Program-made: the position numbers and the translations under genes
Shown: positions 5,527 to 6,612 of the stretch, piece by piece
How the letters are laid out: every line of letters starts with the position of its first letter
Position numbering within the stretch: the first letter of the stretch is position 1
Notes under the pieces: generated by a model
What the model saw: the letters and a program-made list of their open reading frames with translations, nothing else
Told to the model about the DNA's origin: nothing
The model's database searches: none
NCBI GenBank assembly: GCA_043819555.1
Contig: JBDREQ010000065.1
Coordinates: 1 to 14,297 of the forward strand
From: Candidatus Zixiibacteriota bacterium
GTDB lineage: Bacteria > Zixibacteria > MSB-5A5 > GN15 > JAAZOE01
Reading direction: 5' to 3'
DNA: 14,297 bases

Positions 5527-5575
5527 AAAAATGGCAGGGTATCCCAAAGTGATGCAATTGATTATAAATTGGCGT
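5527..5575 (+). repeat. Degenerate direct repeat copy A (att-like), partner at 6494-6540
   Basis: AAAAATGGCAGGGTATCCCAAAGTGATGCAATTGATTATAAATTGGCGT aligns to 6494-6540 at 36 of 49 columns (one 2-nt gap). Both copies end in TGGCGT. Confidence 0.75.
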
Positions 5576-5620
5576 GCCGTAGTTGAAGATCTTCGAAATT
5601 ATTTGAGGCAGGTTGCTTGA
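5531..5620 (+). other. 29-codon frame MAGYPKVMQLIINWRAVVEDLRNYLRQVA crossing repeat A; resembles the C-terminal tail of att-spanning recombinases; probably a remnant rather than a gene
   Basis: ATG 5531 to TGA 5618-5620; the W-R codons coincide exactly with the TGGCGT core. The resemblance to recombinase tails (W-x4/5-D-x-R-N) is my pattern recognition, not a search result. Confidence 0.35.
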
Positions 5621-5685
5621 ACAATTAGACCTGCAGTATTCGTGATTGGCATGCAGTCAACGTGGTTTTTATTGATCTTCAATTA

Positions 5686-6333
5686 TCAGCGTTTAAGCCG
5701 AGAAATAAGCCATCCAAGAAAATTCAAAAATAGTAAAATACCACCTACGTTCCTGATTATATCACCAGTATTTTGGTATGGGGATAGGCTGGTTTTGATG
5801 GAATCATAGAATCGCTGATCCTCAATTGAAGCTATATGAAGTGTGTCTGTGACATTGATCGTCAAGGTGTCATTTTTAAAAATCGAGCCAATTTCTTTGG
5901 GGTAATTAAGGAGAATTCTAATCTCATAAGGATAAGAATCGGGCTTAAAGTTGGGCGGAAACTTGAATACTACGATGGGTTCTATTTTCTCTTCAGTACG
6001 ATCAAAAATTCCTGATCCGATGGTTGTATTAATTGAATTTCCCCACTGGAAGTATCCTTCAATTTTTGTATATAAGGATGTAATTTCGGTATCACTAATT
6101 GGATCCCATAACCGAATTCTCGAGGCAACAGGGTACCAATATCCATTAATTGACTCACCCGGAGAATCGAGTGATAATTTCATTACATCATTAACTGTTG
6201 GAGCAATAGGTGAAACGTTTTTATTGACTTCAAACGGAATTTTTGAAGAAAGCACTGATCCGGTAATCGCAGTAATACAAATACCCACAATGATCAACAC
6301 AATGGCTATTATTAAAAATAGATACTTTTCCAT
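5686..6333 (-). CDS. Hypothetical membrane protein (215 aa; N- and C-terminal TM helices around a soluble domain)
   Basis: Hydrophobic N-terminus (YLFLIIAIVLIIVGICITAITGSVL) and C-terminus (VGGILLFLNFLGWLI-SRLKR). No family recognised. AT-rich relative to flanking genes. Confidence 0.8.
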   Translation of the reverse strand: MEKYLFLIIAIVLIIVGICITAITGSVLSSKIPFEVNKNVSPIAPTVNDVMKLSLDSPGESINGYWYPVASRIRLWDPISDTEITSLYTKIEGYFQWGNSINTTIGSGIFDRTEEKIEPIVVFKFPPNFKPDSYPYEIRILLNYPKEIGSIFKNDTLTINVTDTLHIASIEDQRFYDSIKTSLSPYQNTGDIIRNVGGILLFLNFLGWLISRLKR

Positions 6334-6416
6334 ATACTACTCTTTACTCGGAATAGAACGCCTTAATATTCTCTGATGTTTAAATCAATCGGTTGTGTTA
6401 TTACAGGATCTATTTC

Positions 6417-6445
6417 AATATAGATTTATAATTCACCGATTGCAA
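6417..6445 (-). promoter_or_regulatory. Putative sigma70 promoter for the 215-aa cassette gene
   Basis: Minus strand TTGCAA (6445-6440) - 17 nt - TATATT (6422-6417), ~80 nt upstream of ATG 6333. Confidence 0.55.
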
Positions 6446-6483
6446 TTGAATTTTGGCAAATAGCAATACAATTGAATATTGGC
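6443..6483 (+). repeat. Two 15-bp direct repeats CAATTGAATWTTGGC, 26 bp apart
   Basis: CAATTGAATTTTGGC at 6443-6457 and CAATTGAATATTGGC at 6469-6483 (1 mismatch). Related to the CAATTGA...TGGC motif in repeats A and B. Confidence 0.7.
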
Positions 6484-6493
6484 GGAAGTTAGT

Positions 6494-6540
6494 AAAAATA
6501 ACCGCGTATGTCTAAGTCATACAATTGACTATTATGGCGT
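6494..6540 (+). repeat. Degenerate direct repeat copy B (att-like), overlapping the last 6 nt of tRNA-Glu
   Basis: AAAAATAACCGCGTATGTCTAAGTCATACAATTGACTATTATGGCGT; 36/49 identical columns with 5527-5575. Confidence 0.75.
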
Positions 6541-6612
6541 CCCCAGGGGGATTTGAACCCCCGTCGCCGCCGTGAAAGGGCGGTGTCCTGGACCAGACTA
6601 GACGATGGGGAC
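6535..6612 (-). tRNA. tRNA-Glu (anticodon TTC), CCA encoded
   Basis: Reverse complement GTCCCCATCGTCTAGTCTGGTCCAGGACACCGCCCTTTCACGGCGGCGACGGGGGTTCAAATCCCCCTGGGGACGCCA. Acceptor GTCCCCA/TGGGGAC; anticodon arm CCGCC-CTTTCAC-GGCGG; T arm GGGGG-TTCAAAT-CCCCC. Confidence 0.98.

What the first reader, a model, noticed from the sequence alone, without database searches (positions are those of the whole stretch)
5527..6612. Integrase-less single-gene cassette captured at the CCA end of tRNA-Glu, bounded by att-like arms rather than a tRNA duplication
Seen: 5527-5575 and 6494-6540 align at 36/49 columns and both end in TGGCGT, which at the right copy is the last 6 nt of the tRNA (ACGCCA). The 965 bp between the cores hold one AT-rich membrane-protein gene of unrecognised family with its own TTGCAA-17-TATATT promoter and no recombinase. 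Established: classical tyrosine-integrase islands duplicate a longer piece of the tRNA 3' end, whereas serine recombinases need only a very short crossover core between protein-binding arms. Here the homology lies outside the tRNA and only 6 nt of tRNA are shared. Inference: a minimal non-autonomous cassette mobilised in trans, possibly one unit of an integron-like array that accumulates at tRNA 3' ends. The left copy may be the original empty-site flank or a junction with an older cassette.
Basis: partly seen in the sequence, partly recalled or inferred. Interest (0 to 1): 0.8.

Follow-up and report, generated by a model that had tools for sequence, protein, structure and literature searches.

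The report
Recombinase-less one-gene cassette at tRNA-Glu
A single foreign membrane-protein gene sits in a 965-base unit docked at the end of a glutamate tRNA gene, and its far end is the cut-off tail of a DNA-inserting enzyme's gene, so it is a stripped-down member of a known kind of stacked mobile island and not a new kind of element.

Summary
On the + strand it reads WRAVVEDLRNYLRQVA*, the severed C-terminal tail of a tRNA-Glu-targeting large serine recombinase (LSR). A database LSR ends in this tail (P0012); integrated copies end in tRNA-encoded residues. The arm occurs in 16 of 285 related genomes (controls 0). It carries the tRNA's T-loop heptamer 5 bp further from the core, the attP/attB signature (PMC3783163). 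Of 17 fully bounded units (0.8-17 kb, 10 genomes), 16 lack a recombinase and none share cargo. Movement of this unit was not shown: no reads, no cognate LSR in this genome, and no LSR parent found for its proximal arm. The layout matches Dehalococcoides ssrA islands and CIMEs (PMC3146451, PMC5704250), and this scan noted it before in at least 21 other genomes. New variant of a known kind.

The parts
6535..6612 (-). tRNA-Glu(ttc); its T-arm and acceptor 3' strand are the B half-site of the target
   Evidence: ARAGORN; LSR genes read into the same tRNA end in G050, G001, G004, G013, G042
6552..6558 (-). T-loop heptamer, 11 nt from the core; inferred zinc-ribbon-domain motif of the B half-site
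   Evidence: GTTCGAA in 23 and GTTCAAA in 7 of 30 tRNA-Glu loci; role inferred from PMC3783163 (passages)
6535..6540 (-). Right core ACGCCA (B-P' joint, attL-type); inferred crossover dinucleotide AC at 6540-6539
   Evidence: Dyad symmetry peaks on AC: 5.47 of 12 pairs against at most 3.65 for 12 other centres; joints with ACGTTA, ACGTTC and ACGGAT confine it to ACG
6417..6534 (-). Proximal (P'-side) arm of this unit: non-coding, a diverged member of an arm family found in family f1; includes the promoter-like site
   Evidence: Clusters with 7 other arms; aligns over 124 nt to the arm after a G001 junction; the part beyond nt 60 is matched by 2 of 5000 shuffles; no LSR similarity
6417..6445 (-). 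Promoter-like TTGCAA-17-TATATT reading into the cargo
   Evidence: 9 of 12 consensus, not significant alone; same position and spacing in the G001 arm
5686..6333 (-). Cargo gene, 215 aa, probable membrane protein: helices at both ends around a strand-rich domain; no family
   Evidence: No Pfam; one full-length relative, P0002, 44%; 0 of 284 other genomes; GC3 0.32 against 0.41-0.45 for 6 neighbours; model pLDDT 50
5576..5620 (+). Distal P arm: severed LSR C-terminal tail, codons 3-16 of WRAVVEDLRNYLRQVA plus stop 5618-5620
   Evidence: 16 of 285 genomes, control 0; 31 distinct copies, first stop at the 15th codon after WR in 25; P0012 is an LSR ending in this tail
5592..5598 (-). Heptamer 16 nt from the core; inferred zinc-ribbon-domain motif of the P half-site
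   Evidence: GTTCGAA in 20, TTTCGAA in 5 and single variants in 6 of 31 P arms
5570..5575 (-). Left core ACGCCA (P-B' joint, attR-type); inferred crossover AC at 5575-5574
5501..5569 (-).
   Evidence: The same arm lies directly behind tRNA-Glu in G003 and G012 and behind junctions in G001, G003, G012
1..5490 (.). sulP, response-regulator and kinase block: possibly the next unit of the stack; its far end is not assembled
   Evidence: Pfam for sulP and the regulator; the contig starts at 1 with no overlap to another contig; the same module lies away from any tRNA in G002, G003, G012

Best explanation
The 965 bp are a recombinase-less unit of a tandem stack built at the 3' end of tRNA-Glu by a large serine recombinase family whose attP lies inside the last codons of its own gene. 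Shown: full elements have the LSR reading into the tRNA, and the LSR's true tail sits at the far end of the element. Inferred: the enzyme recognises the tRNA T-loop heptamer 11 nt from the core (B) and the same heptamer 16 nt from the core in the tail arm (P), cuts at AC (the two bases before the discriminator), and is lax about the right-hand arms. Each new unit lands at the tRNA and pushes the earlier right-hand arm outward, which gives the 36/49 repeat. This unit kept about 45 bp of P and a 125-bp proximal arm with a probable promoter. It most likely reached this site as a unit, moved by an LSR from another element: in cis as part of a composite whose LSR-bearing part then excised, or in trans. 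I favour the cis route somewhat (about 3:2), because only that route has published precedent. Excision would give a 965-bp circle and regenerate tRNA-Glu joined to 5569.
For: Tail identity: P0012 (PF07508, PF13408) ends HQLWRPFIEDFRTYLMQISA, while P0007, P0009 and P0011 end in tRNA-encoded WRPQGDSNP...; a broken LSR runs in frame into such a tail in L084. G050 has an intact 512-aa LSR at tRNA-Glu, this arm 17.1 kb away, and no tRNA fragment between. Coding signature: codon 15 is a stop in 27 of 31 arms (TGA 16, TAA 8, TAG 3); 17 of 30 possible synonymous against 29 of 96 non-synonymous variants (p 0.016, sequences not independent). 5-bp heptamer shift, as described for serine integrases (PMC3783163). 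16 of 17 bounded units lack a recombinase, and 6 genomes hold two or more (one search list: G003, G048, G034, G179, G189 with adjacent units; G000 has a second junction on C23). Ends are trimmed to site size: P-arm likeness ends after 46-58 bp in 4 of 5 pairs, 82 in the fifth; LSR-derived right arms keep 36-126 nt of the gene in 9 of 9 tested. Related right arms head successive units within one genome (140 nt at 81% in G048; about 165 nt in G189). The window's modelled circle joint has 7 of 12 symmetric pairs, against 8 for the autonomous G050 element.
Against: No two of the 17 units share cargo DNA (blastn E<=1e-6), so no unit was caught at two places. No reads of this organism were listed, so no circle or empty site could be tested. 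G000 (97% complete) has no match to the G050 LSR at E<=1e-40; its best is 27% identity, at tRNA-Asp. The window's proximal arm has no LSR similarity, its family has in-frame stops in several copies, no LSR bearing it was found, and the window's copy lacks the family's palindrome. Intact reading frames in the tails suggest that P arms come fresh from autonomous elements, which also fits repeated decay in place. Symmetry beyond CCA is weak (3.29 against 2.39 +/- 0.31; 8 of 2000).
Confidence: 0.6

Rival explanations
1. Relic made in place. An autonomous LSR island entered tRNA-Glu and later lost its LSR end by deletion or replacement, leaving one gene and the P tail. The 965-bp unit never moved as such.
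For: No shared cargo between units; no cognate LSR in G000; the proximal arm is the most diverged of its family; decay to a CIME is the standard published first step (PMC5704250); tails look recently coding.
Against: It needs a separate deletion for each of 16 units, each leaving arms of site size. It does not readily explain why successive units in G003, G048 and G189 begin with related non-coding arms. No internal LSR remnant was found in 16 of 17 units.
Confidence: 0.3
2. The non-coding right-hand arms are ends of tyrosine-integrase elements, and the unit is a chimera of a tyrosine-type proximal end and an LSR-type distal end.
For: These arms hold palindromes and, in 2 copies (G003, G012), tandem repeats that recall tyrosine arm sites (recalled, no call). 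A tyrosine integrase does sit at tRNA-Glu in G016, with a partly similar arm.
Against: The G016 tyrosine element has its own 25-bp tRNA duplication and the P junction lies beyond it. No tyrosine integrase was found beside any arm of the window's family in the loci fetched. No comparable tRNA fragment turned up behind the tRNA in the G003, G012, G034, G048, G050, G179 or G189 arrays.
Confidence: 0.08
3. Chance similarity in AT-rich DNA beside an ordinary gene.
For: The region is 31-39% GC; the promoter match alone is at chance level.
Against: 0 of 5000 shuffles and best non-self genome block; 24 matches in 16 genomes against 0 for the reversed pattern.
Confidence: 0.02

Closest known systems
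Dehalococcoides ssrA-specific genomic islands with the LSR DsiB (McMurdie et al. 2011, PMC3146451; 12 passages read)
   Same: Tandem islands at the 3' end of a tRNA-like gene; a roughly 540-aa serine recombinase always overlapping attL with its 3' end, which the authors suggest is complete only on the circle or next to an adjacent island; 15 islands without an integration module, proposed to be cis-mobilizable.
   Different: Target is tRNA-Glu, not ssrA. Shared core is 6 nt (3 in some joints), not a 20-bp repeat. None of the five genes Pfam-tested behind the G050 LSR up to its restriction genes is a second serine recombinase like DsiA (the rest of the six-gene module was not tested). Units go down to 0.8-1.7 kb with one gene.
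CIMEs and tandem accretion (review PMC5704250; 12 passages read)
   Same: Defined there as elements that lost integration and transfer genes but kept attL and attR; they stack when new elements enter the site; transfer of CIME-ICE tandems has been observed.
   Different: The examples in the passages read are conjugative-element systems of Firmicutes. Here the ends are defined by a severed LSR tail with almost no direct repeat, and no transfer functions were looked for.
Phage-type large serine integrases (A118/LI, Bxb1, phiC31; PMC3783163, 12 passages read)
   Same: Resolvase, recombinase and zinc-ribbon domains; 2-bp crossover in a pseudo-palindromic attP; zinc-ribbon motif 5 bp closer to the centre in attB than in attP.
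   Different: Here the motif appears to be the tRNA T-loop, only the left half-sites are well conserved, and attP lies inside the integrase gene.
Integron gene cassettes (recalled; no call)
   Same: Small units, often one gene, stacked at one site, with the recombinase outside the unit.
   Different: No IntI beside the array; ends are double-stranded serine-type sites and not attC hairpins (not folded here); cargo lies in either orientation and often spans operons; the promoter-like site lies within the unit's own arm.
Tycheposons of Prochlorococcus (bioRxiv 10.1101/2020.12.28.424599; 12 passages read)
   Same: Cargo elements that remodel islands at tRNA genes; a minority use an LSR.
   Different: 910 of 937 elements there use tyrosine integrases, attachment sites are partial tRNAs of about 40 nt, and the elements carry their integrase.

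Membership tests
CIME (cis-mobilizable element) | No integration or transfer genes | tested here: met
   One gene, no Pfam family; no hit with 6 recombinase queries
CIME (cis-mobilizable element) | attL and attR retained | tested here: met
   By sequence: tRNA-core-arm at 6612-6417 and P arm-core at 5620-5570; function untested
CIME (cis-mobilizable element) | In tandem with other elements at one target | tested here: inconclusive
   A second right-hand arm follows the left core and a second junction is on C23, but the contigs cannot be joined; adjacent units are shown in G003, G034, G048, G179, G189
CIME (cis-mobilizable element) | Co-excision or transfer with an adjacent autonomous element | not testable with these tools
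   No reads of this organism
Dehalococcoides ssrA-GI | Integration at ssrA with a 20-bp direct repeat | tested here: not met
   Target is tRNA-Glu; 6 nt shared
Dehalococcoides ssrA-GI | LSR gene overlaps attL at its 3' end | tested here: met
   For the parent family: G050 LSR and P0007, P0009, P0011, P0012
Dehalococcoides ssrA-GI | Six-gene integration module (dsiB, dsiA, recF-like, parB, mom and a large gene) | tested here: not met
   Behind the G050 LSR: tyrosine-recombinase-like, HTH, peptidase M78, HTH, type III restriction and methylase genes (7 of its genes scanned)
Large serine integrase att system | Zinc-ribbon motif shifted by 5 bp between attB and attP | tested here: met
   Heptamer at -18..-12 in 30 tRNA loci and at -23..-17 in 31 P arms
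Large serine integrase att system | Pseudo-palindromic attP around a 2-bp crossover | tested here: inconclusive
   Symmetry peaks on AC, but much of it comes from GG/CC set by the tRNA; weak beyond
Large serine integrase att system | Recombination by the enzyme | not testable with these tools
   Needs an assay
Integron cassette | IntI beside the array | tested here: not met
   No tyrosine recombinase beside the array in G000 (5 PF00589 matches, all on other contigs)
Integron cassette | attC hairpin sites | not tested
   No folding or attC model run
Tyrosine-integrase tRNA island | Longer tRNA 3' duplication at the distal end | tested here: not met
   6 nt only; contrast the 25-bp copy of the G016 tyrosine element

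The most novel reading that the evidence does not exclude
These Zixibacteria-type genomes run a dedicated gene-capture system: minimal cassettes with a 45-bp P arm and a non-coding proximal arm that carries its own promoter are excised and re-stacked at tRNA-Glu in trans by passing LSR elements. The enzyme reads the T-loop heptamer and tolerates almost any right-hand half-site, making this a serine-recombinase counterpart of the integron that shuffles host-type genes and operons.
Probability: 0.25. Interest if true: 0.75.

Novelty: new variant of a known kind. Interest (0 to 1): 0.45.

Why it matters
Such units escape island finders that need an integrase or a 15-60 bp tRNA repeat (inference), so a route of gene gain in uncultured bacteria is probably undercounted; the 45-bp tail is a clean marker for it. 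The data give a base-level, testable model of how an LSR targets a tRNA: T-loop heptamer, 5-bp shift, AC crossover, tail swap on integration. That makes the open suggestion of McMurdie et al., that the recombinase is complete only on the circle, directly testable, and points to a tRNA-targeting integrase with one lax half-site. The overall layout is published for ssrA islands and recurs in this scan, which caps the surprise.

Tried and rejected
Reads: neither listed run holds the stretch (share 0.00); laying them gave only other organisms' tRNA contigs, one trace at 5555-5656 and no informative joint. Reading the left arm as LSR coding (GYPK...WR): rejected, since several copies have in-frame stops or a shifted frame and there is no LSR similarity. 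My first reading of the hairpin tails behind tRNA-Glu in relatives as empty sites was wrong for at least 4: they are LSR C-terminal remnants; no secure empty site was identified. The search for a parent LSR of the window's arm family found none: joint pattern, 0 hits in genome contigs; arm pattern, 6 hits in 5 of 285 genomes, and no recombinase in the 5 flanking regions I fetched for such arms (the G257 hit was not examined). G000's own LSRs as helpers: C67 reads into tRNA-Asp, C7 is of the G001 type with another end, the C31 fragment resembles a tRNA-Gln type. Joining C65 to C23: no overlap. Cargo function: Pfam none; word search only itself among 170 candidates; atlas best 0.79 by features and TM at most 0.42; P0003 and P0004 match only short stretches and P0003 is repetitive; the model was too poor for a fold search (pLDDT 50). 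Literature: 9 answered searches listed no paper on tRNA-Glu LSR cassettes or on Zixibacteria islands; the library lacks most subscription papers, and no supplements were read.

Full report
Observation. The two stretches align at 36 of 49 columns; 0 of 5000 shuffles and no other 1-kb block of 6630 in the genome reach their score. tRNA-Glu(ttc) lies at 6535-6612 (-). The 965 bp between the cores are 35.4% GC (25 of 3433 windows are as low) and hold one 215-aa gene without family, with one full-length relative among 1.84 billion representatives (44%), absent from 284 other genomes of the phylum. The promoter match exists but is at chance level alone. The host is most likely a Zixibacterium: 4 of 6 records with an exact arm match are so titled and 2 are titled uncultured Ignavibacteriales; earlier notes on this genome say the same (unchecked).

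Relatives break at the tRNA end. In 10 family loci, DNA similarity covers the tRNA and its 5' side and ends at or just past its 3' end. What follows differs: an LSR of another type in G001, a 943-aa C25 peptidase in G003, a 457-aa gene in G012, LSR ends in G004, G013 and G042. In G003 a second core 3.3 kb away is preceded by the same sequence as window 5576-5600.

The missed arm. A pattern from that sequence matched 24 places in 16 of 285 genomes, all in two families (f1, 5 of 13 plus G000; f4, 10 of 33), with 0 for the reversed control. Exact scans gave 6 genome and 6 metagenome records. A profile over everything fetched gave 32 rows, 31 distinct; it was trained on these, the lowest score was 41.8 and the reversed genome reached 9.9. 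On the other strand the arm is a reading frame: WR, 14 codons and a stop, first stop at codon 15 in 25 of 31, with three stop codons in use. The window reads WRAVVEDLRNYLRQVA*. P0012, an LSR, ends in this tail, while its integrated relatives end in tRNA-encoded residues. G050 holds the full element: a 512-aa LSR reading into tRNA-Glu, this arm 17.1 kb away and no tRNA fragment between. So attP lies in the LSR gene's 3' end, and integration leaves the tail at the far end. I reached this reading, before seeing the scan's earlier notes.

Site anatomy. The T-loop heptamer lies at -18..-12 from the core in 30 of 30 tRNA loci (fixed by tRNA structure) and the same or a near-identical heptamer at -23..-17 in 31 P arms. 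A 5-bp shift of the zinc-ribbon motif between attB and attP is the published signature of serine integrases (PMC3783163, passages); that this heptamer is that motif is my inference. Dyad symmetry peaks on the AC of the core in 17 modelled circle joints (5.47 of 12, others at most 3.65) and in 32 natural junctions (5.19, others at most 3.69); much of it is GG/CC set by the tRNA, and the rest is weak (8 of 2000 shuffles). Joints with ACGTTA, ACGTTC and ACGGAT place the cut within ACG; two G003 joints lack even ACG and may be secondary sites.

Arrays. I took every unit with both ends inside one fetched locus: 17 units, 820-17,110 bp, 10 genomes. I left out the G016 unit, whose proximal end is a tyrosine element's tRNA fragment, and all junctions with one end unassembled or unfetched. 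Only G050 has a recombinase (6 queries); no two units share cargo. P-arm likeness stops near the stop codon. Right-hand arms are of two sorts: LSR ends cut to 36-126 nt (9 of 9 tested) and non-coding families. The window's two copies belong to a non-coding family seen in G000, G001, G003, G004 and G012. The proximal copy aligns over 124 nt, promoter-like site included, to a G001 arm; that is two instances only.

Mechanism. Shown: LSR ancestry of the distal end, tail swap, tandem stacking, absence of a recombinase. Inferred: recognition through B and P with lax right arms, cut at AC, outward displacement of older arms. Open: whether this unit moved, and how. The cis route (ride with an adjacent LSR element that then excises) has precedent (PMC5704250; PMC3146451); the trans route fits the trimmed ends but has no direct support here. 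Against mobility: no repeated cargo, no reads, no cognate LSR in G000, a diverged proximal arm, and no parent for that arm family.

Comparison. It works like the Dehalococcoides ssrA islands (LSR overlapping attL, tandem islands, 15 without an integration module) but fails their target, repeat and module tests; by sequence it meets the CIME definition; it is not an integron cassette on the IntI test. Nine answered literature searches listed nothing on this tRNA-Glu system; I read passages of four papers, no whole text and no supplements. The scan holds 21 notes of the same layout in other genomes (8 shown there, and 8 rows, one of them a repeat), which are unchecked and not counted as support; none came up for this place or sequence. 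Verdict: real, a new variant of a known kind, interest 0.45.

Noticed in passing
window 13981-14297 (+): N-terminal part of a probable tyrosine integrase (28% to the G016 integrase over 96 aa, E 2e-5) starts 108 bp after tRNA-Leu(cag) and runs off the contig: a second island begins here.
   Followed up: partly
G000:C23:12967-13017: Second P-arm junction in this genome, with a premature TGA at tail codon 7, followed by what looks by eye like a hydrogenase and hyp operon; may be the far end of the sulP block.
   Followed up: partly
G000:C67:56287-57840; C6:4966-6297; C31:94898-95221; C7:6603-8264: Other recombinases: an LSR reading into tRNA-Asp, a tyrosine integrase reading into tRNA-Met, an LSR end fragment at a contig edge, and a G001-type LSR with no tRNA beside it.
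   Followed up: partly
L085-L114: Relatives of the G050 LSR sit at tRNA-Ser, -Asn, -Asp, -Gln, -Arg and -Glu across the order, most reading into the tRNA end (26 of 30 loci have a tRNA call): a ready set for testing target-switch rules.
   Followed up: partly
L069:8900-18081 and L032:361-4311: A redox operon (by eye NrfD, 4Fe-4S and Hdr-like) forms a bounded unit in G048, and similar genes lie near the tRNA-Glu fragment in G001; possibly one cargo in two arrays, not aligned.
   Followed up: no
L155:1480-1558; L032 near 8160: G001 has two distal ends made of about 20 bp of tRNA-Glu 3' end, one followed by the window's arm family: a second LSR type with a different P arm uses the same site.
   Followed up: partly
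window 5951-6376 (+): A 141-codon frame antisense to the cargo, no Pfam family; probably a shadow frame.
   Followed up: no
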